Below the pieces are notes generated by a model. The model was not told the origin of the DNA and ran no database searches. It saw only the letters and a list, made by a program, of their open reading frames with translations. From IMG/VR virus record IMGVR_UViG_3300036859_000424: DNA of 64,000 bases; one strand, 5' to 3'. Shown piece by piece: positions 2,238-61,008 of the stretch; positions within the stretch are counted from its first letter, which is position 1, and each line of letters opens with the position of its first letter. The translations under genes were made by a program, and so were the position numbers. The DNA comes from a virus.

Positions 2238-2537
2238 ATGGCCGACCGCTACCGCATCCACATCCTCCGGGTCGCCGACGAGACCTGGGAGATAGCCGAC
2301 GCCGGCGACGACCTGGAGTCGGCCCGCGCCCAGGTGGGCCGGATCGCTGACGACCTGCTGGACAAGGACGACGGGCTTGAAGCGCACCCGTCGGTCCCAA
2401 CGTTCATGGCCCGGCCCGGCGCCCGCCAGATCGGGATCTCTCGCGAGGACCCGCTGGCCCCGGAGATCGTGATCCGGCTGCTGGACACCACCCTCCACCA
2501 CTGCCCGACCTGCACCTGCGCCATGCTGGCGCGGTAG
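2238..2537 (+). CDS. hypothetical protein with C-terminal HHCPTCTC motif
   Basis: Preceded by CCTGAGAGGAG. Confidence 0.75.
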   Translation: MADRYRIHILRVADETWEIADAGDDLESARAQVGRIADDLLDKDDGLEAHPSVPTFMARPGARQIGISREDPLAPEIVIRLLDTTLHHCPTCTCAMLAR

Positions 2538-2613
2538 TCAGACCCGGCCCTGGCCGCCCGACATCACCGGACAGCCTGGGCCACCGGACCCCGCTGGTCG
2601 ACCTGAGAGGAGC

Positions 2614-2799
2614 ATGCCCGTGGAAGACGCTGCCGTGCGTCACCTGGAGCCGGTGGTCACCGTCCACTGCGCCCACTGCGAGGGGGCGCGCCCCCACACC
2701 CTGATTGACACCGTCGCCGGAGTCACCTTCCGTTGTACCTTCTGTGCAGTGACGACGACGCTGTACAGCCTGGAGGGGCAGCGTGGCCCGGAAAGCTAA
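2614..2799 (+). CDS. small zinc-ribbon protein
   Basis: CxxC pairs HCAHC and RCTFC; preceded by CCTGAGAGGAG. Confidence 0.7.
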   Translation: MPVEDAAVRHLEPVVTVHCAHCEGARPHTLIDTVAGVTFRCTFCAVTTTLYSLEGQRGPES

Positions 2800-3184
2800 G
2801 ACTGGCGCCGAACAGCTTGACCTGTTCGCGGCCGATCCAACCCCGATTGCGCTACGCCCGGAGGACCGGGCGCCGACCTGGGAAGAGATGCGCGAGCGTG
2901 GCCGCGTCCACCTACGGCAGATGACTGAACTGGCCCGCACCCGGGGCCAGCGGCGCCGTGAACGGATCGCGGCGGGCCTGGAGCAGCCGTGGACGCCGCC
3001 GACGTTCTGGATCAAGGACCGGCCCAAACGTCAACCGCCGAAAACCGCCGAAAATTCGCTAACGGCGATGAATCCCGGGGAAACCCGGGCAATTCCGGGC
3101 AATTCCGGGGACCCCCCACAGCCGGCCCGACTGCTCGCCGTTGACACCAAACCTGACACCCGGGTACGCTGGTGGCAGGGCTGA
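2783..3184 (+). CDS. hypothetical protein
   Basis: Overlapping ORF, plausible N-terminus MARKAKTGAEQLDLF. Confidence 0.6.
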   Translation: MARKAKTGAEQLDLFAADPTPIALRPEDRAPTWEEMRERGRVHLRQMTELARTRGQRRRERIAAGLEQPWTPPTFWIKDRPKRQPPKTAENSLTAMNPGETRAIPGNSGDPPQPARLLAVDTKPDTRVRWWQG

Positions 3185-5825: not shown

Positions 5826-6397
5826 TGACCACGAAAGCCCAGTTCAAGCGCGTCAAGGAGAGCCTGGAGCGCGAGCGGCTACGCCTGAGAGGCGAGGCGC
5901 TGACGCTGGAGAAGCGGCAGCGCGAGATGCGACAGGAGCGCGTCGACGCGATCGCCTATCTGCGGCTGCTGTGCGGCCAGTACGGCGACAACGACTGGCC
6001 CGACACCATGCCACTGGTCGAGATCCTCCAGGTCCACCTGGCCCACCGTCTCCAGGTCGACCTGTCCAGGATCAGCCGGCGGCTGGCCCAGCTTCAAGCT
6101 GAAGTCGAACGGCTCCGGCAGGCCCCGGAGCAGTCGCAGGACCCCCTGCGGGGCGCGACCATCGCAAGCGACGTCCCGGACACGGTCCGGGACGTCCCCC
6201 GCCCGACGCCGGCGTCGGGCGGTCCCGCCCCCCGCGACGTCCCGGGCCACCAGACCCTGCCGGTCGTATCTACGGGCGGGAAGTGGACCGGGACCTGTAG
6301 CTGCGGCTGGCGCCAGTTCGGCCTGCCCAACAAGGAGGCGGCCCAACTGGCCGGCGACGTCCACGCGTCCCGGATGCTGCCGCTGACCGCGACATGA
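5825..6397 (+). CDS. coiled-coil protein with C-terminal CxCGW zinc motif
   Basis: Helical charged N-half; HQT...WTGTCSCGW...H. Confidence 0.7.
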   Translation: MTTKAQFKRVKESLERERLRLRGEALTLEKRQREMRQERVDAIAYLRLLCGQYGDNDWPDTMPLVEILQVHLAHRLQVDLSRISRRLAQLQAEVERLRQAPEQSQDPLRGATIASDVPDTVRDVPRPTPASGGPAPRDVPGHQTLPVVSTGGKWTGTCSCGWRQFGLPNKEAAQLAGDVHASRMLPLTAT

Positions 6398-6906
6398 TGG
6401 ACATCCACCAGACGCTACGCCACTACCTGGAAGCGATGGTCGAGGCGATCCCGGCCCTGATGGGTCCCACGCCGCGACCCCAGCGCTACCGATCGTATGA
6501 GCACCTGGTCTACGACCTGGGGCAGCCCTGGGTGTCCGCCCCGCTGCCCCCGTTCGTGGTCCCCGGCCCGATGCGCTACTGCTATCAGAACACCCTGGAT
6601 TTGCTGCGCCAGGTGCGCGAAACGTCTGATCTGCCCCTACGCTACGTTGAGGGGTACGCGATCGCGGCGATCGGCGACTTCCAGGGTATCCCCTGCCAGC
6701 ACGCCTGGCTGATCGACCCGGCCGGCCAGATCTGGGACCGGACCTGGCCGGAGCCGGAGCGGTCGGCGTACTGGGGCATCGTGTTCGACAGGGACGAGGT
6801 CGAGCGGTTCGACTACCTGGGTCCCGACTACCTGGGCATCCTGGCCAGTGAATACCTGCTTTCGTTCCCATTGCTCCGCACAGGAAAGCTGTTCCCAGAT
6901 GGATAG
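6394..6906 (+). CDS. putative papain/transglutaminase-like Cys-His-Asp protein
   Basis: CYQNT...YVEGYA...PCQHAWLID...WDRTW. Confidence 0.6.
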   Translation: MMDIHQTLRHYLEAMVEAIPALMGPTPRPQRYRSYEHLVYDLGQPWVSAPLPPFVVPGPMRYCYQNTLDLLRQVRETSDLPLRYVEGYAIAAIGDFQGIPCQHAWLIDPAGQIWDRTWPEPERSAYWGIVFDRDEVERFDYLGPDYLGILASEYLLSFPLLRTGKLFPDG

Positions 6907-7357
6907 CCCGGCTGCTGACTGGCGATCCATGCCGTGCGAGGAGTGGGTCGGCCCGGTCTTCCAGGACACCGGCTACGGCCGGGTCCGCACGCGCCTGGGG
7001 GACCGCACCGCCCATTCCTACACGTGGGAGGAGTGCTTCGGCCCTATCGAGGACGGCCTGGTCATCGCCCACCACTGCGATAACCGCCCCTGCCGTCAGC
7101 CACTACACCTGTTCAAGACGACGAAAGCGGGCAACAACCGTGACATGGCCGCGAAGGGGCGGCATTTCAAGCAGCAGAACACCCACTGTCCCAACGACCA
7201 CCCGTTCGATACTGGGAACACTCGTACCGGCGATGGCTATCGCCGCTGTCGACAGTGCATGACCGACAAGCAGCAGCGATACCGCGCCCGGAAACGATCG
7301 CTGCTGCGGACTGGCCAGCTATTCCCACCAATCACGGAGGAGATCACGCACGCATGA
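6899..7357 (+). CDS. HNH endonuclease (HNH_3 type), putative homing endonuclease 1
   Basis: GYG...HHCDNRPCRQPLHL...NNRDM plus C-terminal THCPNDHPF...RRCRQC zinc module. Confidence 0.9.
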   Translation: MDSPAADWRSMPCEEWVGPVFQDTGYGRVRTRLGDRTAHSYTWEECFGPIEDGLVIAHHCDNRPCRQPLHLFKTTKAGNNRDMAAKGRHFKQQNTHCPNDHPFDTGNTRTGDGYRRCRQCMTDKQQRYRARKRSLLRTGQLFPPITEEITHA

Positions 7358-37298: not shown

Positions 37299-37820
37299 TC
37301 ACTCCTCCAGTGGAATCGTCACAAAGTAGATCTCGGTCGGGGTGACCAGGAAGGTGTCGATCGCCTGCGGCCCGGGGTCGCCGGGTGGCGGGTCCGGCGG
37401 GGCCGCCACCCGTTCGACGTACTCGCCGAAGTTGATCGCTTCAAAGATCGCGGTGTCTGACGCGGCCCAGTGGCGGCCGGCACCGGTCTGGATCTGCACC
37501 CCAAGCGCGCTGAACTGGTTGTCGGTCTCGCCGAACGCCAGCCCGCCATCGTCGCTCCGGTAGTGGAAGTGCAGGTAGGGCTCGCCGCCTTCGGCCACGA
37601 TCTCGACCCGCCCCTGTTCTTCCAGGCTGGACAGGAACGTGTAGCCGCCGTCGGTCGGGATCGGCGGCAGCGTCGCCTCGATCTGTTTGATCTCGCCGGT
37701 CCCGTTGCCGGCGATGCCCTTGTACAGCCCGTCGCCGATGAACATATAGACTTCAGCGTCGATATCCGGCCAGGCCGGGACGGCCCATTCGGCGTGCCGC
37801 ACACCCAGGAAGCCGGCCAT
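37299..37820 (-). CDS. minor tail protein
   Basis: TGATG coupling at 37820; YRSDDGG Asp-box-like motif. Confidence 0.7.
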   Translation of the reverse strand: MAGFLGVRHAEWAVPAWPDIDAEVYMFIGDGLYKGIAGNGTGEIKQIEATLPPIPTDGGYTFLSSLEEQGRVEIVAEGGEPYLHFHYRSDDGGLAFGETDNQFSALGVQIQTGAGRHWAASDTAIFEAINFGEYVERVAAPPDPPPGDPGPQAIDTFLVTPTEIYFVTIPLEE

Positions 37821-40015
37821 CAGGTGTTGCTCCAGGAGACCAGGCTGAACTGCCCGCCGCCGGTAGAGAGGCCCCGGGCGTACGGCCCGACTTCGGTCGC
37901 GGCTGTCAGGATGCCGGACAGGTCGTGGATCGACAGCGACTGCCAGACCCGGCCGTCCATGCTCCACCAGACCTGGAAGTTGACGTTGTCGGTCGTCCGG
38001 AGCCGGAACCAGATCGGGTGCAGGCTGAACAGATCCTGGCTGAACAGCGTGGTTGGCAGGGTCACGGTGCCGGTCGAGGAGACGACCCTGGCTTCAAAAT
38101 GATCGGTGTCGTAGGCGATCTCGACGCCGGCGTAGCCGCCGCCAGATCCGGTCAGCATGACGCCGACCGCCGCGTCGGTGTCAGGCGAGAGCGTCGGCAC
38201 GATGAACGCCGCGATGTCCCAGGTCGGGCTCGGAACGTTGCGTCGCCAGCCGACCATCTCGGTGCCAGTGCCGCCCTTCTGGGCGGTGAAGGCGCCGAAG
38301 TTCGCGGCGTTCCAGCCACCGGTGCTGCCAAAGGTGAACCAGCCGGATGTGCCGACCGGCGAGACGATCGGGCGGGTGTAGCCCGGCACCAGGGTCAGCA
38401 TCTCGATCGCGCCGCCGCTGCCGACCCCAAGGACGGTGCCGGCCCCGCCGTCGGTCACCGAGAACCGCTCCGGCGCGCCGCTGGCCCCGCCGACGATGAT
38501 GTCGCCGGCGTCGGTCATCGGGTTGGCAAAGCCACCCCCGGACCCCGGCGCGCCCCAGAACGGCCGCCCGCTGCCGTCAAGCTGAAGCACGTCGCTCTCA
38601 GTGAAACTGCTGGGGAGACGGACTGGGGCGCCGGCGGCCGCGCCGTCGTACAGGTAAAACTCTGTGATCCGCCAGCCGTTGGCGCCGCCGCTAACCCCCA
38701 GCAGCCGCCAGCGCTGGGCCGTGGCCGGGGTGTCCAGGATGACCAGGCCGGTCCCGAACGACGACCCCTGACCGGTCTGGGTGTTGGCCACCTGCCAGGT
38801 GGCCCCGTCCCAATACTCCAGGTCGTACTCGTCAGCCCGGAAGCCGGCCCCGGTCTCGTTGGTCACCACCTCAAAGGCGACGATCTCGATCGGGGACCCC
38901 AGATCGATCTCGACCCAGCCGCCGTCCGCCGGGCCGGCACCCTGGTCCCAGAAGGTGTCGAAATCGGCGTCATGAACGTTGTCGGGGCTGGACCCGGCTT
39001 CGGTCGATGACGCGGTCGCCGTCGCTGGGTCCAGGTGTGAGACGGCGCTGTACGGCTCGCCAGGCACAGCGCCGTAGATCATGTCGAACGGGGCGATCAT
39101 CGGGTTGGTCAGGCCACCGCCGCTGCCACCTTCACCGGGTGGGCCAGCGGGTCCGGTCGGTCCGGCCGGGCCGGTAGCTCCGACAGCTCCGGTGTCACCC
39201 TTCGCCGCCAGCAGGCCCCAGTAGAGAGCTGCGGGCGGTTCCTGGTTGACGTGGGCCAGGATGCACAGGTAGCTGGACCCTTCGTGGCTGACGGCGTCGA
39301 ACAGGGCGTAGGTCTGGGCGCTGTTCCAGTCCCCCTGCCAGACGATGCTGCCGCCGCTGCCACCGCCACCGGTCGCGGCCGTCCACAGCTCGATCGTGTT
39401 CACGACCCAGAAGTGGCCGACGTCGGCGCCGGCGAGTCCGTACAGGCGCCAGTAGCGGGCGGTGACGGCGACCGGCAGGGCGACCTTGCCGGTGTCGGTG
39501 AACGGTCCGGTGATCGTGACCTGGTCGGTCCAGATGACGTCATCGGTGCTGCTTTGCAGCTTCGCCGACGTCGCCCGGTTGGCGATCGACTCCGGGCTGT
39601 TCAAGACCCGGTATTCGGCGATCGTCTCGGCCGTCCCGAGATCGATCCTGACCCATTCGTCGGACGCGTCGTTGGGGAAGGCGCCAGCCCAGCTTGTCCC
39701 GTCGTCACCGTCGATCGTCAAGCCGGGGACGCGCTCCGGGCCACTAGCATTCTGTGAACTGGCCGTGGCGACAGCGCCGGCGGTCGCCAGGGCGACGTTC
39801 TCGCCGGGCGTGCCCCCGCCGCCGCCGCCGCCGATGCTGACCGGCCCGACCGGCAGCCATTCGTCGTCGCTCTCCGATCGGACCTTCAGTCGGTACGGCA
39901 CGCCGCCCGACGTGTCGACCCAGAAGATCTTCGCCCGGACGTCCTCGTCGGTCGGTTCTTCGGACTGGACGAACGCGGCCAGGTGGATGTCGTTCAGCTC
40001 AGCGTGATCGGCCAT
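37820..40015 (-). CDS. receptor-binding protein: two F5/8 type C (discoidin) domains, short collagen, WxGxW module, beta-sandwich tip
   Basis: NVALAT...ATASSQ...IDGDDGTSW...WVRIDLG...ARYWRL and a second copy. Confidence 0.85.
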   Translation of the reverse strand: MADHAELNDIHLAAFVQSEEPTDEDVRAKIFWVDTSGGVPYRLKVRSESDDEWLPVGPVSIGGGGGGGTPGENVALATAGAVATASSQNASGPERVPGLTIDGDDGTSWAGAFPNDASDEWVRIDLGTAETIAEYRVLNSPESIANRATSAKLQSSTDDVIWTDQVTITGPFTDTGKVALPVAVTARYWRLYGLAGADVGHFWVVNTIELWTAATGGGGSGGSIVWQGDWNSAQTYALFDAVSHEGSSYLCILAHVNQEPPAALYWGLLAAKGDTGAVGATGPAGPTGPAGPPGEGGSGGGLTNPMIAPFDMIYGAVPGEPYSAVSHLDPATATASSTEAGSSPDNVHDADFDTFWDQGAGPADGGWVEIDLGSPIEIVAFEVVTNETGAGFRADEYDLEYWDGATWQVANTQTGQGSSFGTGLVILDTPATAQRWRLLGVSGGANGWRITEFYLYDGAAAGAPVRLPSSFTESDVLQLDGSGRPFWGAPGSGGGFANPMTDAGDIIVGGASGAPERFSVTDGGAGTVLGVGSGGAIEMLTLVPGYTRPIVSPVGTSGWFTFGSTGGWNAANFGAFTAQKGGTGTEMVGWRRNVPSPTWDIAAFIVPTLSPDTDAAVGVMLTGSGGGYAGVEIAYDTDHFEARVVSSTGTVTLPTTLFSQDLFSLHPIWFRLRTTDNVNFQVWWSMDGRVWQSLSIHDLSGILTAATEVGPYARGLSTGGGQFSLVSWSNT

Positions 40016-40071
40016 CTCAGGACGCCGGACCTGTGCTGTGACCGGCCATTGCCGAGAACAGGCTGTTGACG

Positions 40072-40626
40072 TCAGCGGGTGTGTGGGCAGTACCCGTAGC
40101 GCCCGAGGGCGAAGTTACAGTTGGCGCAGAGCACCCGGTAGCCCTCCGGAAAACCGTTCCGCCGGAGCCAGTAAAAGACGCCGGTCGACCCGCGAGACCC
40201 AGACTGGGCGCGCTGAACTCCTCCACCGCCGTTGACGTGGTCAAGCTGCAAGAACTCGTCGGCGGTCTCGTCACAGCAGGCGCAGTGGGGCTCGCCGCCG
40301 GCGTAGTGGGATAGGACGAGTCGGCGGATTGCGATGGCGGCTGCGCGCGTCTCACGGTTCCGTTGATCTCGCCAGTCGGGATCGCTGGCGTACCGGCGCC
40401 GGTTGCGGGCTGCGTTGTCGGTGTAGACGGCGTCCTTGTTCGCCTCGACATAGGCGCGTCGGGCGGCCAGTTTCTGCTCGCGGTTGGCGGCATAGTAGCG
40501 TTTGGATCGCGCACTGTCACACTGCTTGCAGACGGCAGCAACGCCGAAGCGCCCGCCCGGCTTCCTGGGGAAGTCGTTGTCGGTATCTTTCGGTTTCTCG
40601 CAGGCACGACAGACCTTGATCGGCAT
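40072..40626 (-). CDS. HNH-type endonuclease, putative homing endonuclease 2
   Basis: CRAC...CKQC zinc finger; HCACC...LQLDHVNG...VLCANCN. Confidence 0.85.
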   Translation of the reverse strand: MPIKVCRACEKPKDTDNDFPRKPGGRFGVAAVCKQCDSARSKRYYAANREQKLAARRAYVEANKDAVYTDNAARNRRRYASDPDWRDQRNRETRAAAIAIRRLVLSHYAGGEPHCACCDETADEFLQLDHVNGGGGVQRAQSGSRGSTGVFYWLRRNGFPEGYRVLCANCNFALGRYGYCPHTR

Positions 40627-40669
40627 GCGGCCAGTGTACTAGGCATGTTGTGCTCCTCGCACTGTATGT

Positions 40670-40972
40670 TCACGACGTTGGGCCTGTGCTGTGACCCGCC
40701 ATCGCACTGAAGAGGCTGTTGACGGTGAACTCTAGATCGCCATCGACGCTCTCGGCCGTGATGGCCGGGTTGCCGGCGACCGCCATCGCCATCGGGCCGG
40801 AGGCGCTGGCCGGGTTGTTCAGCGCGTAGGTCGCGTAGGTCGCGCGCAAGTCGTGCCCGTCGACATTCTGGACTTCGGCCATCACGGCCGTTGACGCCTT
40901 GATCAGCGCCATCTCGACCCGGGCGCGGAAGGCCGGGTCGACCCCAAGTGCGTACTGGTCAGCGAACGCCAT
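40670..40972 (-). CDS. virion-associated hypothetical protein
   Basis: Coupled in the tail operon; its 3' end is duplicated at 40017-40070. Confidence 0.8.
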   Translation of the reverse strand: MAFADQYALGVDPAFRARVEMALIKASTAVMAEVQNVDGHDLRATYATYALNNPASASGPMAMAVAGNPAITAESVDGDLEFTVNSLFSAMAGHSTGPTS

Positions 40973-41317: not shown

Positions 41318-42553
41318 TCAGTCTCCCAGCCGATCGGCTTTCAAGTAGGTGCCGTTGTAGTGGATGCCGATAGCGGTGGCCGGGCCTTGCGTGAGGTAGG
41401 CGTTCATGACGATCGTCTCGCCGCCGGCGAAGTAGGCGGTCTCAGAAAACTGGGGCACCACATAGGCGCCGTTGTTCTGGTAGCTACCAACCCCCGGCTC
41501 GCCATTGGCCCCGTTGATCAGGAAGCCGCCGCTGATCGAGAAGTAGGCGGTAAAGTTGCCGACCCCGCCGGTCGTTTGATGGCTGTAAATCTGCCCGGTG
41601 ACCCGGTAGCGGCCCGGGGTCTGGATCAACAGACCGTTGCCGCTGGCCATGTTGTCGTTGTCGACCATCACCTGCGAGAGCGGCAGGGCCGCTGGCGTGC
41701 TGCTGATCGTCATGAAGTTGGTGCCCGCCCACTTCACGCATCTCGGCGCCCGCTGAACGCTCGTCGAACTGGCGCCACTGAACATCGGCGGGATTGCCGG
41801 CGGCAGGATCTTCGGGACGAACGAGCCTTCAACCAGCGCCGCGTTGTCGACAAACACGTTCACGCCGCTGGCGTTCACGAACAGCTCAACCCCAACCGCG
41901 ATGACGCCGCCGGGTGGGCCGCTGCACTGCTGGATCAGGGTCTCCCACTGGTTGGTCAGGGTGTTCGATGGCCCGTAGGTCGTCGTGACACCGTTCCAGT
42001 AGAACGGCCGGGCCGCGCTGGGGACGGCCGCGTTGACCCGGAACCGGGTCGCAAACGCCTTGTTGCGCAGATGCTTGACCAGGCGCGGTGGCAGCCACTG
42101 GGCCAGTTGCTGCACGCCGTTCATGCCGACTTTGGACAGACGCAGCGCGGTCTCGCCGCCGTACGCCGTGTCGACGGTGGTGCCCTGCAACAGGACGTTG
42201 GCGGCGTCCGACGCATGGCCCTTCAGCGCCAGCCAGCCGGGCACGGCCGGCGTGTAGGCGGTGGTCGTCAGCGCCAGCACACCGGTCGTGCCCCCATCCT
42301 CAAACGACGGGTTCGCCAGGTAGTTCGCCACTGGTGCGCCCTGATACAGCGAGAACTCATCCGGCGCCCCTGGTGGCGTCAGCGAGATCGTCGTGTTGTC
42401 GACCTCAAGGGTCTTCAGCCCGTCAAGCCGCAGCTCCGGCAGCTTCGCGTCTGGCAGTGTCACGATGCTGGCGCCGGCCGGGGCCGTGGCCAGCGGCTGA
42501 CCGTAGGCCAGGATGCGGCGGTCCGACGTGCGGACCTGGACGTCGACGCTCAT
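41318..42553 (-). CDS. tail fibre / carbohydrate-binding minor tail protein
   Basis: NYLANPSFEDG CBM-like start; LIQTPGRYRVTGQI C1q-like tip. Confidence 0.75.
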   Translation of the reverse strand: MSVDVQVRTSDRRILAYGQPLATAPAGASIVTLPDAKLPELRLDGLKTLEVDNTTISLTPPGAPDEFSLYQGAPVANYLANPSFEDGGTTGVLALTTTAYTPAVPGWLALKGHASDAANVLLQGTTVDTAYGGETALRLSKVGMNGVQQLAQWLPPRLVKHLRNKAFATRFRVNAAVPSAARPFYWNGVTTTYGPSNTLTNQWETLIQQCSGPPGGVIAVGVELFVNASGVNVFVDNAALVEGSFVPKILPPAIPPMFSGASSTSVQRAPRCVKWAGTNFMTISSTPAALPLSQVMVDNDNMASGNGLLIQTPGRYRVTGQIYSHQTTGGVGNFTAYFSISGGFLINGANGEPGVGSYQNNGAYVVPQFSETAYFAGGETIVMNAYLTQGPATAIGIHYNGTYLKADRLGD

Positions 42554-42831
42554 GACGCTGGTCCGTACAACAGGGTCGCAAGCTCCGGGTCGGACCGGCG
42601 CACCCGGGCGATCGTCTCCTCCTGCTCACGCTCGCCGATCGTCGGGACCAGCACGACCGGGATGACCGTGACCTCGCCATTCTCGGCGATGTACTTGACC
42701 CCTGGTGCTGCCAGCGCCGCTTCCTGCGCCGGCGTCAGGGTGACCAGCACCAGATCGGGATCGACGGGGTCGGCACTCCATTCCCCCAGCGCGACGACCT
42801 GCCGGTCGGAGAGTCTGACCAGGGCTTGCAT
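42550..42831 (-). CDS. tail-fibre chaperone-like protein
   Basis: Paralogous to the N-terminus of 41318-42553 (VRLSDRQVVALG vs VRTSDRRILAYG). Confidence 0.65.
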   Translation of the reverse strand: MQALVRLSDRQVVALGEWSADPVDPDLVLVTLTPAQEAALAAPGVKYIAENGEVTVIPVVLVPTIGEREQEETIARVRRSDPELATLLYGPAS

Positions 42832-60378: not shown

Positions 60379-61008
60379 GTGAAGCGCTGTTCGCGGTGCG
60401 GGGCCGACCCGACCGCCGAAAACTCGTACCCGACCGGCCAGGTCTGCCGGCCCTGTAAGGTCGCGAGCGCGATGGCCTGGAACAAGGCCAACCTCGAACG
60501 ACGCCGTCAAATCAGTGCTGCGTCGGCGCGGCGGGCATACCACGCCGATATCGACGCCACGCGGGCCAGGAAACGCGCCTGGCGGGCCGAGAACGCCGAT
60601 CGGGAGAACACCCGCACCCAGCGCTGGCGTGATGCCAACCCCGGCGCGGTCCGCGCCCAGAACGTCCGTTACTACCACGCCAACCCTGACGCCAGTCGGG
60701 CGCGCTGGCTGACCCACTACCTGGCAGACCCGGAGCCGACCCGTCAGCGCAACCGTCGGCGTCAGGCGCTGGTGCGCGGGGCAACCGTCTACCCGTTCAC
60801 GGTGGCCGACTGGCAGGCCCAGGTCGACGGCTTCAACCGGCGCTGCGCCTACTGCCTGCGACCGCTGATCCGGGTGACGATGGATCACATGACCCCGGTC
60901 TCGCGGGGCGGGGATCACGCGATCGAAAACCTGGTCCCCTGCTGCCAATCGTGCAACAGCCGAAAGAAGGACCGAACACTGCTGGAATACCTGCCGCTTC
61001 TTGGGTGA
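60379..61008 (+). CDS. HNH endonuclease (antisense to the late operon), putative homing endonuclease 3
   Basis: RCAYC...TMDHMTPVSRGG...NLVPCCQSCNSRK. Confidence 0.9.
   Translation: MKRCSRCGADPTAENSYPTGQVCRPCKVASAMAWNKANLERRRQISAASARRAYHADIDATRARKRAWRAENADRENTRTQRWRDANPGAVRAQNVRYYHANPDASRARWLTHYLADPEPTRQRNRRRQALVRGATVYPFTVADWQAQVDGFNRRCAYCLRPLIRVTMDHMTPVSRGGDHAIENLVPCCQSCNSRKKDRTLLEYLPLLG

What the first reader, a model, noticed from the sequence alone, without database searches (positions are those of the whole stretch)
40017..40740. HNH insertion 2: 54-bp duplicated gene end plus its own leaderless promoter
SEEN: gene 40670-40972 ends VNSLFSAMAGHSTGPTS* (40670-40723), and an orphan copy VNSLFSAMAGHSTGPAS* lies at 40017-40070, 1 nt after the HNH stop. 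The copies share 44/54 nt and 16/17 aa, and the differences are almost all synonymous. Upstream of the HNH ATG is TACACT-N6-ATG with no RBS. KNOWN: TANNNT 5-7 nt before a start is the leaderless-mRNA signature of Actinobacteria and Deinococcus. INFERENCE: the clearest case here of a self-contained cassette [recoded gene end + promoter + HNH] inserted into a structural gene's tail without damaging it.
Basis: partly seen in the sequence, partly recalled or inferred. Interest (0 to 1): 0.75.

Follow-up and report, generated by a model that had tools for sequence, protein, structure and literature searches.

The report
HNH homing cassette with replacement gene end
A selfish HNH nuclease gene sits inside the last 17 codons of a small phage tail-module gene and keeps that gene intact by carrying its own rewritten copy of the gene end; this layout is known from yeast and fungal mitochondria, and here it also carries a promoter-like motif and an overlapping reading frame that runs to the old stop codon.

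Summary
40670-40723 and 40017-40070 (minus strand) share 44/54 nt and 16/17 aa, and 7 of 8 differing codons are synonymous. TACACT-N6-ATG precedes the HNH start.

- The two nearest HNH homologues (59% and 53% identical), from other soil phages, lie directly after a homologue of the same 100-aa gene. Each is followed, after stop + 1 nt, by an orphan copy of that gene's end.
- A fourth lineage has the same layout up to its contig end.
- All four keep TANNNT-N6-ATG.
- Eight of ten close relatives of one lineage lack the HNH. They have a single, native-codon end and no second copy.
- In that lineage the in-gene end is recoded (GC3 0.33) and the orphan is native (0.92).
- In the window itself, codon usage does not say which copy is older.

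New here: the orphan's frame (HNH +1) stays open across the whole HNH in all five loci with this layout. It starts at or near the host gene's stop, and in the window it ends 1 nt before the tail-fibre ATG. In another relative a DNA methylase ORF reads through the HNH gene in this same frame.

The closest known systems are yeast WHO elements and fungal mitochondrial mORFs. This scan has found similar phage cassettes before on other DNA. Cleavage, immunity and the transcription start are untested.

The parts
40724..40972 (-). Body of gene A, a 100-aa tail-module protein of unknown function, up to the conserved ...DLEFT motif.
   Evidence: 351 homologues of about 95-100 aa. Alignment A1 gives the consensus D.DIEFTVNS.WNA.AGV. 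Family members match only PHROGs of unknown function.
40670..40723 (-). In-gene (functional) end of gene A, VNSLFSAMAGHSTGPTS plus TGA. It is inferred to be the cassette-borne replacement end.
   Evidence: These 17 codons have the poorest codon adaptation in the gene (-20.6, against -10 to -15 elsewhere).
40627..40669 (-). 43-nt spacer holding GAGGAG (40658-40653), a +1-frame ATG (40646-40644), TACACT (40638-40633) and N6 (40632-40627).
   Evidence: The order SD-like element, +1-frame ATG, TANNNT, N6, HNH ATG recurs in L041 and L054, and partly in L034.
40633..40638 (-). -10-like hexamer TACACT, 6 nt before the HNH ATG. Candidate promoter of a leaderless HNH mRNA.
   Evidence: Conserved as TACACT, TACATT or TATGCT at N6 in four lineages. 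Background frequency 0.4% of ATGs. The motif and its spacing follow PMC3898074.
40072..40626 (-). HNH endonuclease gene (184 aa).
   Evidence: PHROG 2255 'HNH endonuclease', E = 3.4e-12. tblastn matches to annotated phage HNH genes. Invariant DH...N and four Cys. AF2 pLDDT 95, with weak matches to HNH domains.
40017..40070 (-). Displaced ('orphan') copy of the gene A end, VNSLFSAMAGHSTGPAS plus TGA. It lies 1 nt after the HNH stop and 1 nt before the next gene's ATG.
   Evidence: Orphans at the same position in L041 and L034.
40017..40673 (-). Overlapping +1-frame 'bridge' ORF. It starts at a GTG overlapping the gene A stop (GTGA), or at the SD-led ATG at 40646. It runs through the whole HNH gene and ends at the orphan's TGA.
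   Evidence: The same frame is open in L041, L034, L054 and L110, and in L084 it carries a methylase ORF through the HNH gene.
37820..40015 (-). Gene B, a 731-aa tail-fibre-like protein with F5/8 type C domains. Its ATG is 1 nt after the orphan's stop, and I see no SD-like motif in the bases before it.
   Evidence: sequence.

Best explanation
This is a mobile HNH homing-endonuclease cassette of the 'end-replacing' type. The cassette is [replacement copy of the last 17 codons of gene A + 43-nt spacer + HNH gene]. It is inserted exactly at the T|V codon boundary of the conserved FTVNS motif of a small tail-module gene. Gene A therefore stays full length, and its native end is pushed 653 nt downstream, where it still abuts the tail-fibre gene.

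Inferred mechanism: in a mixed infection the HNH cuts or nicks the uninterrupted allele near this site. Repair copies the cassette, using the gene A body as the left homology arm and the orphan end plus gene B as the right arm. The synonymously rewritten in-gene end makes the carrier allele a poor substrate.

HNH is probably expressed from its own -10-only promoter as a leaderless mRNA starting at 40626.

Shown: the anatomy, the conserved junction, the patchy distribution and the recoding pattern. Inferred: cleavage, immunity, homing and the promoter.
For: 1. The repeat and its synonymous bias are real.
2. The nearest HNH homologues, P0152 and P0153, sit directly after gene A homologues. Stop + 1 nt after each lies an orphan gene A end beginning (G/A)TCAAC. 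L054 shows the same layout up to its contig end.
3. Of 10 relatives with gene A 76-84% identical to L034's, 8 lack the HNH and 1 carries an HNH (L054); L048 was not tabulated separately because its gene-A end is identical to L047's in the 120 nt shown. The HNH-less ones have one end that runs straight into the next gene. None of 32 HNH-less loci with enough downstream sequence has a second copy.
4. In L034 the in-gene end has GC3 0.33, against 0.92 for the orphan, 0.93 for the gene body and 0.67-1.00 for the HNH-less alleles. Six of 8 HNH-less ends are closer to the orphan.
5. The L034 and L054 HNHs are 56% identical while their gene A proteins are 76% identical, so nuclease and host gene have different histories.
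6. L110 is an independent case at an unrelated 314-aa gene (in-gene end GC3 0.33, orphan 0.80).
7. Pooled over the four cases, pS is 0.82 and pN 0.11 (Fisher p = 1.5e-18).
8. TANNNT-N6-ATG is kept in four lineages. Two have the extended TGN form, which goes with strong mycobacterial promoters (PMC3898074).
9. The same logic was shown experimentally for yeast WHO elements (PMC7282813).
Against: - There is no close relative of this phage, so the HNH-less allele of this particular gene A has not been seen.
- In the window both copies have GC3 0.76. Codon preference favours the orphan only slightly (-18.8 against -20.6), with three changes in each direction.
- There is no biochemical evidence for cleavage or resistance.
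- No RNA run holds the region.
- A sigma-70-type scan finds no two-hexamer promoter at the HNH start.
- Pfam does not reach its threshold for any HNH family, and the fold matches to HNH domains are weak (Z 3-4.5).
- The HNHs of the three main lineages are about as diverged as their gene A proteins. Old vertical co-inheritance could therefore explain those three; only the L034/L054 pair is clearly incongruent.
Confidence: 0.75

Rival explanations
1. A single ancient insertion is now fixed and immobile. The HNH is retained for another role, such as interference with competing phages, or is simply not yet decayed. The duplicated end is a historical scar with no present immunity function.
For: HNH identities among the window, L041 and L034 (54-59%) are of the same order as, or higher than, their gene A identities (36-46%), which fits co-divergence. 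The junction is identical in all three, as expected from one founding event.
Against: Within one tight gene A clade, 8 of 10 members lack the HNH and the two carriers have HNHs only 56% identical. The orphans are still intact at the protein level in every lineage, although synonymous divergence from the in-gene end is near saturation. That is hard to reconcile with long neutral decay. The HNH catalytic and zinc residues are invariant.
Confidence: 0.13
2. The rewritten in-gene end is shaped mainly by expression signals rather than by nuclease immunity. Its A/T-rich codons would provide the upstream part of the HNH promoter and the Shine-Dalgarno for the overlapping ORF.
For: In L034 the recoded codons GGA GTT create a GGAG 8 nt before the +1-frame ATG, whereas the orphan has GGG GTG there. 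The recoded ends lie roughly 40-95 nt upstream of the putative transcription start.
Against: In the window the recoding is not A/T-biased. In L110 every codon from the first one on is changed, far beyond any one signal. Resistance through a replaced 3' end was shown experimentally for the analogous WHO elements (PMC7282813).
Confidence: 0.08
3. The repeat is a chance or slippage duplication unrelated to the HNH gene, which merely landed between the two copies.
For: None beyond the bare existence of a repeat.
Against: The same layout, with the same junction, recurs in diverged lineages and at a second host gene. HNH-less relatives never have two copies. The differences are overwhelmingly synonymous.
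Confidence: 0.02

Closest known systems
WHO elements at the yeast FBA1 gene (Coughlan et al. 2020, PMC7282813)
   Same: The endonuclease gene lies between a full-length host gene and a fragment of that gene's 3' end. The fragments start at one position near the cleavage site. The in-gene 3' end is a diverged, resistance-conferring replacement. The fragment serves as the second homology arm. The functional unit is the nuclease gene plus the upstream 3' end. The nuclease is transcribed independently of the host gene.
   Different: WHO nucleases are intein-derived LAGLIDADG-zinc-finger proteins in a eukaryotic nucleus, the duplicated piece is about 400 bp, and the elements build clusters. Here the nuclease is an HNH in a phage, the duplicated piece is 54 bp, there is one copy, and there is an overlapping ORF through the nuclease gene. 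Resistance was shown experimentally for WHO6 and is untested here.
Mobile endonuclease ORFs (mORFs) that make hybrid genes in fungal mitochondria (Allomyces atp6; Glomus atp6, atp9, cox2, nad3; PMC3630166)
   Same: There is a carboxy-terminal duplication flanking an endonuclease ORF. The inserted end is highly diverged in DNA but nearly identical in protein. The native end lies downstream and resembles the endonuclease-less relatives.
   Different: The nucleases are LAGLIDADG or GIY-YIG and the genomes are organellar. The mORF is often in phase with the host gene. No separate promoter is reported.
Free-standing homing endonuclease genes of T4-like phages, and insertions inside genes (mobE in Aeh1 nrdA, mobA at T4 gene 39/60; review PMC2988022)
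   Same: These are phage HNH or GIY-YIG genes that spread by intronless homing. Some are inserted within essential coding regions, with special devices that keep the host gene working, and with tight control of nuclease expression.
   Different: In those cases the host gene is split into two polypeptides or bypassed by the ribosome, and no replacement copy of the gene end is carried. I found no phage report of the end-replacing layout; the search was not exhaustive.

Membership tests
HNH (beta-beta-alpha-Me) endonuclease superfamily | Catalytic D-H at the end of strand 1, a conserved Asn, and a terminal Asn/His on the helix | tested here: met
   D129-H130 are invariant and N169 nearly invariant across 40 homologues.
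HNH (beta-beta-alpha-Me) endonuclease superfamily | Two Cys pairs that bind structural zinc around the motif | tested here: met
   C115, C118, C167 and C170 are invariant; C117 and C180 are nearly invariant.
HNH (beta-beta-alpha-Me) endonuclease superfamily | Significant match to a curated family profile | tested here: inconclusive
   PHROG 2255 'HNH endonuclease' matches at E = 3.4e-12 and PHROG 1035 'endonuclease VII' at 5e-10. Pfam HNH_5 gives only 14 bits against a cut-off of 27.5. There is no PDB sequence match.
HNH (beta-beta-alpha-Me) endonuclease superfamily | HNH fold | tested here: inconclusive
   The AF2 model has pLDDT 94.9. Residues 100-184 align to Gme HNH, Cas9 HNH, T5 SciA, GVE2 HNH and T4 endo VII, but only at Z 2.7-4.4.
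Free-standing homing endonuclease gene (intronless homing) | Present in some and absent from other closely related genomes, at the same site | tested here: met
   8 of 10 relatives with gene A 76-84% identical to L034's lack the HNH. All carriers have it at the same codon boundary.
Free-standing homing endonuclease gene (intronless homing) | Nuclease history differs from host-gene history | tested here: met
   L034 against L054: gene A 76% identical, HNH 56% identical. This is a single clear pair only.
Free-standing homing endonuclease gene (intronless homing) | Site-specific cleavage of the nuclease-less allele and preferential inheritance in mixed infection | not testable with these tools
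   This needs protein and phage or plasmid crosses.
End-replacing homing elements (WHO / mORF type) | Nuclease gene flanked by the full-length host gene and a fragment of its 3' end that starts at a fixed position | tested here: met
   The window, L041 and L034 all read HNH stop + 1 nt + (G/A)TCAAC. L110 shows the layout at another gene.
End-replacing homing elements (WHO / mORF type) | The in-gene end is the foreign or recoded copy, and the fragment is the native type seen in nuclease-less relatives | tested here: inconclusive
   Met in the L034 clade (GC3 0.33 against 0.92; HNH-less alleles 0.67-1.00) and in L110 (0.33 against 0.80). Not decidable in the window itself (both 0.76), and no close relative is available.
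End-replacing homing elements (WHO / mORF type) | The replacement end confers resistance to the element's own nuclease | not testable with these tools
   Inference only. It was shown for WHO6 (PMC7282813).
End-replacing homing elements (WHO / mORF type) | Nuclease of the LAGLIDADG, GIY-YIG or intein-derived kind, as in the described members | tested here: not met
   The nuclease here is an HNH. The window element is therefore an analogue, not a homologue, of WHO elements and mORFs.
Leaderless actinobacterial transcription unit | TANNNT -10 element ending about 6-7 nt before the start codon, with no Shine-Dalgarno at working distance | tested here: met
   TACACT-N6-ATG in the window; the same spacing in L034, L041 and L054. 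The only SD-like element lies 26 nt upstream and serves another frame.
Leaderless actinobacterial transcription unit | Transcript 5' end at the A of the ATG | not testable with these tools
   Only two DNA soil-metagenome runs hold the region, and no RNA run does.

The most novel reading that the evidence does not exclude
The 'orphan' end is not a fossil. It is the terminus of a maintained +1-frame ORF overprinted on the whole HNH gene. This ORF starts at the host gene's stop (GTGA) or at an SD-led ATG in the spacer, and it ends at the native stop 1 nt before the tail-fibre ATG.

On the long late mRNA this ORF would carry ribosomes across the 0.65-kb insert. That would preserve stop-start coupling to the tail-fibre gene and prevent polarity. 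The SD-less HNH frame would be read only from its own leaderless transcript. The cassette would thus be translationally transparent to its host operon.

In a low-GC relative (L084) a DNA methyltransferase ORF reads straight through the HNH gene in this same frame. This HNH subfamily may therefore live inside genes as a translated, overprinted insert, without intron, intein, gene split or bypass.
Probability: 0.45. Interest if true: 0.8.

Novelty: new variant of a known kind. Interest (0 to 1): 0.62.

Why it matters
- **A third class of homing element in phages.** The end-replacing class was described for yeast nuclear and fungal mitochondrial genomes. This finding shows it also operates in phages of high-GC soil bacteria, with an unrelated (HNH) nuclease aimed at a conserved motif of a widespread small tail-module gene.
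- **Practical consequences for phage genomics.** Short orphan gene ends and patches of odd codon usage at gene ends are footprints of such cassettes. They mark recombination boundaries in tail modules, and they explain why the two ends of one gene can have different histories.
- **Resemblance to engineered gene drives.** The design, a nuclease plus a recoded rescue copy of its target, is the natural counterpart of home-and-rescue gene drives (comparison from my own knowledge; no paper checked here).
- **A possible new way to limit host cost.** If the overlapping read-through frame is functional, it is a further, previously undescribed way for a selfish gene to sit in an operon or inside a gene at low cost to its host.

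Tried and rejected
- **Close relatives of this phage:** none found. megablast and tblastn against 50,697 phage records, viral contigs with gene A and with the 411-aa neighbour, and the 5.8-billion-protein word search all gave nothing closer than 51%.
- **Codon usage as a way to polarise the two window copies:** uninformative.
- **+1 frameshifting at the HNH stop (UGA C, as in prfB), which would append the orphan peptide to HNH:** rejected. There is no slippery P-site codon and no upstream SD-like stimulator, and L041 has UGA G.
- **E. coli-type two-hexamer promoter at the HNH start:** none found. This is not expected for -10-only actinobacterial promoters.
- **RNA evidence for a transcription start:** no RNA run holds the region.
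- **Mapping a co-conversion tract by comparing L033 with L034:** uninformative. The 100% identity runs from 75 nt before gene A to the end of the locus.
- **Foldseek and PDB sequence search for the HNH:** only weak matches.
- **L135 as a fifth case:** a possible weak orphan end (8/13 aa), but the +1 frame there has 4 stops, so I did not count it.
- **L113:** HNH flanked by two similar Dam-methylase N-termini. Not resolved.
- **Resampling of synonymous codons:** taken locus by locus, this does not make the open +1 frame significant (P = 0.05-0.39 each). Only the joint result and L084 do.

Full report
**Context.** The window is the reverse strand of an 86.4-kb viral record with direct terminal repeats, recovered from soil metagenomes. 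The late genes lie on the window's minus strand. In order they are: a collagen-like fibre gene, a 93-aa ORF (42550-42831), a 411-aa gene, a 114-aa gene, gene A (100 aa, 40670-40972), a 184-aa ORF (40072-40626), and a 731-aa tail-fibre-like gene with F5/8 type C domains (37820-40015).

**Observation.**
- The repeat is real. 40017-40071 and 40670-40724 match at 45/55 nt.
- Read on the minus strand, both copies encode VNSLFSAMAGHSTGP(A/T)S followed by a stop. Eight codons differ. Seven of these are synonymous, including a TCG/AGT serine switch that needs three base changes.
- Similarity ends abruptly on both sides.
- The orphan begins 1 nt after the HNH stop, and its own stop lies 1 nt before the ATG of the 731-aa gene.
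- TACACT lies 6 nt before the HNH ATG. An in-frame TAG 15 nt upstream excludes an earlier start.
- For the window alone, pS is 0.52 against pN 0.09, with p = 0.0065.

**What the genes are.**
- The 184-aa ORF matches PHROG families annotated as HNH endonuclease and endonuclease VII (E = 3e-12 and 5e-10). By tblastn it matches annotated HNH genes of Arthrobacter, Streptomyces and Gordonia phages.
- Across 40 homologues the D-H, the Asn and four Cys are invariant or nearly so.
- Pfam stays below its threshold. An AF2 model (pLDDT 95) aligns only weakly to solved HNH domains, at Z 3-4.5.
- Gene A belongs to a widespread family of proteins of about 95-100 aa and unknown function (351 hits). Their most conserved stretch is D.DIEFTVNS.WNA.AGV at the C-terminus. 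The duplication starts exactly at the V of FTVNS.

**Comparative evidence.** No close relative of this phage exists in the collections searched. The HNH's own nearest homologues are decisive instead.
- *Same layout in other lineages.* P0152 (59% identical) and P0153 (53% identical, found on more than 40 contigs) both lie immediately after a gene A homologue in other soil-phage contigs. In both, the HNH stop is followed by 1 nt and then an orphan copy of that lineage's own gene A end. L041 has INSMWDALAGVITAP against LNSMWNALAGVITTPTP in the gene. L034 has INSLVDAWAGVP against INSLVDAWAGVA. In all three lineages the junction reads TGA, one base, (G/A)TCAAC. A fourth lineage, L054, has the same layout up to its contig end.
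- *HNH-less relatives.* A metagenome scan with L034's gene A returned ten relatives at 76-84% identity. Eight lack the HNH, have one end only, and run straight into the next gene. None of 32 HNH-less loci with enough downstream sequence has a second copy of the end within 1.5 kb.
- *Recoding in the sister lineage.* In L034 the in-gene end has GC3 0.33. The orphan has 0.92, the gene body 0.93, the HNH 0.79 and the HNH-less alleles 0.67-1.00. Six of eight HNH-less ends are closer to the orphan. In that lineage, then, the orphan is the native end and the in-gene end is a rewritten replacement.
- *Different histories.* The L034 and L054 HNHs are only 56% identical although their gene A proteins are 76% identical. 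Nuclease and host gene therefore have different histories.
- *A second host gene.* A screen of 80 further loci of the HNH family found the same layout at an unrelated 314-aa gene (L110). There the in-gene end has GC3 0.33 and uses AGA, AAA and TTT, while the orphan has GC3 0.80.
- *Pooled test.* Over the four cases pS is 0.82 and pN 0.11 (Fisher p = 1.5e-18).
- *Limit for the window.* In the window itself both copies have GC3 0.76, and codon preference does not polarise them. The assignment of 40017-40070 as the native end rests on its position against the tail-fibre ATG. That junction is the same stop-start type seen in the HNH-less relatives. It also rests on analogy with the sister lineage.

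**Expression signals.** The four gene-A-linked lineages all keep TANNNT exactly 6 nt before the HNH ATG: TACACT, TACACT, TACATT and TATGCT. The rest of the spacer has diverged. Two of the four have the extended TGN form. Only 0.4% of ATGs in the window have such a hexamer at that spacing. In Mycobacterium tuberculosis, TANNNT centred 7-12 bp upstream is the dominant promoter element, no -35 consensus is found, and TGN-TANNNT promoters are the strongest (PMC3898074). A leaderless HNH transcript starting at 40626 is therefore a reasonable inference. It is untested, because no RNA run holds the region.

**An overlapping frame.**
- *The pattern.* The orphan is in the +1 frame of the HNH gene. In the window this frame is open from before the gene A stop, through the whole HNH gene, to the orphan's TGA. 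Possible starts are a GTG overlapping the gene A stop (GTGA) and an ATG at 40646 that lies 6 nt after GAGGAG. The same frame is open across the whole HNH in L041, L034 and L110, and across all the available part of L054.
- *Where it starts elsewhere.* In L034 the start is TAGATG and in L110 it is TAATG. In L041 and L054 it is an ATG 6 and 7 nt after GAGG.
- *Statistics.* Given each protein sequence and the neighbours' codon usage, the chance of an open +1 frame is 0.35, 0.39, 0.09, 0.05 and 0.24. The joint chance is 1.3e-4. In this phage's own genes only 7.6% of 185-codon windows are open in that frame. The HNH proteins of the window and of L041 are among the poorest of 64 family members in dipeptides that could create +1 stops. 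Among 79 other loci of the family, only two are open in that frame.
- *L084.* One of those two, L084, has 39% GC. There a 642-aa DNA methyltransferase ORF, with Pfam N6_N4_Mtase matched on both sides, reads straight through the HNH gene in this same frame. The chance of this is 5e-5.
- *Caution.* I noticed this pattern after the fact, and the gene A lineages are not fully independent. Even so, the property appears to be maintained.
- *Proposed function.* The frame would carry ribosomes of the late polycistronic mRNA across the insert to the native stop, 1 nt before the tail-fibre ATG. I see no Shine-Dalgarno-like motif in the bases before that ATG. This would preserve coupling and avoid polarity. 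The SD-less HNH frame would then be read only from its own transcript. This is inference. In L110 and L041 the next gene has its own signals, so coupling cannot be the only role.

**Comparison with known systems.**
- *Yeast WHO elements.* The anatomy and the inferred mechanism match WHO elements almost point for point: a nuclease gene between a full-length FBA1 and a fragment of its 3' end, a replaced and resistant 3' end, and the fragment acting as second homology arm (PMC7282813).
- *Fungal mitochondrial mORFs.* They also match the hybrid genes made by mORFs (PMC3630166).
- *Differences.* The nuclease families differ, so this is an analogue, not a relative.
- *Phage precedents.* In phages the described solutions for homing genes inside coding regions are gene splitting and ribosomal bypass (PMC2988022). 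I found no published phage case of end replacement. That search was limited to the held library.
- *Earlier findings of this scan.* Notes describe similar cassettes in other phages, mostly at gene starts. For one of them I confirmed the duplicated peptide: LLRTGKLFP in the gene and LLRTGQLFP in the HNH tail.

**Verdict.** The cassette interpretation is supported, with high confidence for the anatomy and its insertional origin. Confidence is moderate for active homing, immunity through the rewritten end, and the leaderless promoter. The element is a new variant of a known kind. The overprinted read-through frame is the part that would be new.

Noticed in passing
L084:1162-3090 (HNH gene at 1758-2273): In a 39%-GC viral contig, a 642-aa DNA methyltransferase ORF runs straight through a homologous HNH gene in the HNH +1 frame. 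Pfam N6_N4_Mtase matches on both sides. The chance of this frame being open is 5e-5. An LKP..EP segment is duplicated on either side of the insert.
   Followed up: partly
L110:2259-2882: Independent end-replacing HNH cassette at an unrelated 314-aa gene upstream of a 453-aa ORF that looks like a DnaB-type helicase by eye (not checked by a family search). The in-gene end KPLKPPRARVFAVVR uses AGA, AAA and TTT (GC3 0.33). The orphan KPLKPPRAKVFAVVR has GC3 0.80. A +1-frame ORF starts at TAATG.
   Followed up: partly
window 6394-7357 (+): Another HNH-type insertion in this phage. Gene 6394-6906 ends ...LLRTGKLFPDG, and the overlapping 169-aa ORF 6848-7357 ends ...LLRTGQLFPPITEEITHA. Here the old gene end is in frame with the nuclease ORF itself. 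blastp finds no similarity to the 40072-40626 HNH.
   Followed up: partly
window 60379-61008 (+): A third HNH gene (209 aa, canonical C-terminal HNH motif) lies antisense in the late operon. blastp finds no similarity to the other two.
   Followed up: no
L033:3653-3988 versus L034:2566-2856: Two contigs are 100% identical from 75 nt before gene A onward, except for a 1-nt indel inside the recoded gene A end. In L033 this indel shifts the frame and lengthens gene A to 111 aa. It is either a real inactivating mutation or an assembly error. Upstream of this tract the contigs diverge sharply, which marks a mosaic boundary.
   Followed up: partly
L045:1154-1189: An HNH-less relative whose single gene A end shares several unusual codons (GAT, GCT GGA) with L034's recoded end and has GC3 of only 0.67. 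It may be the footprint of a lost cassette, produced by deletion between the two repeats.
   Followed up: no
L113, flanks of the HNH gene at about 2501-3121: An HNH homologue flanked on both sides by similar Dam-methylase-like N-terminal segments (about 45 aa, score 148). This could be a start-replacing cassette or two paralogous genes.
   Followed up: no
L135:1912-3060: A possible weak orphan end right after an HNH homologue: MVFTDALDERRGG against the upstream gene end VIYLDALDPRRE. There is no open +1 frame here.
   Followed up: partly
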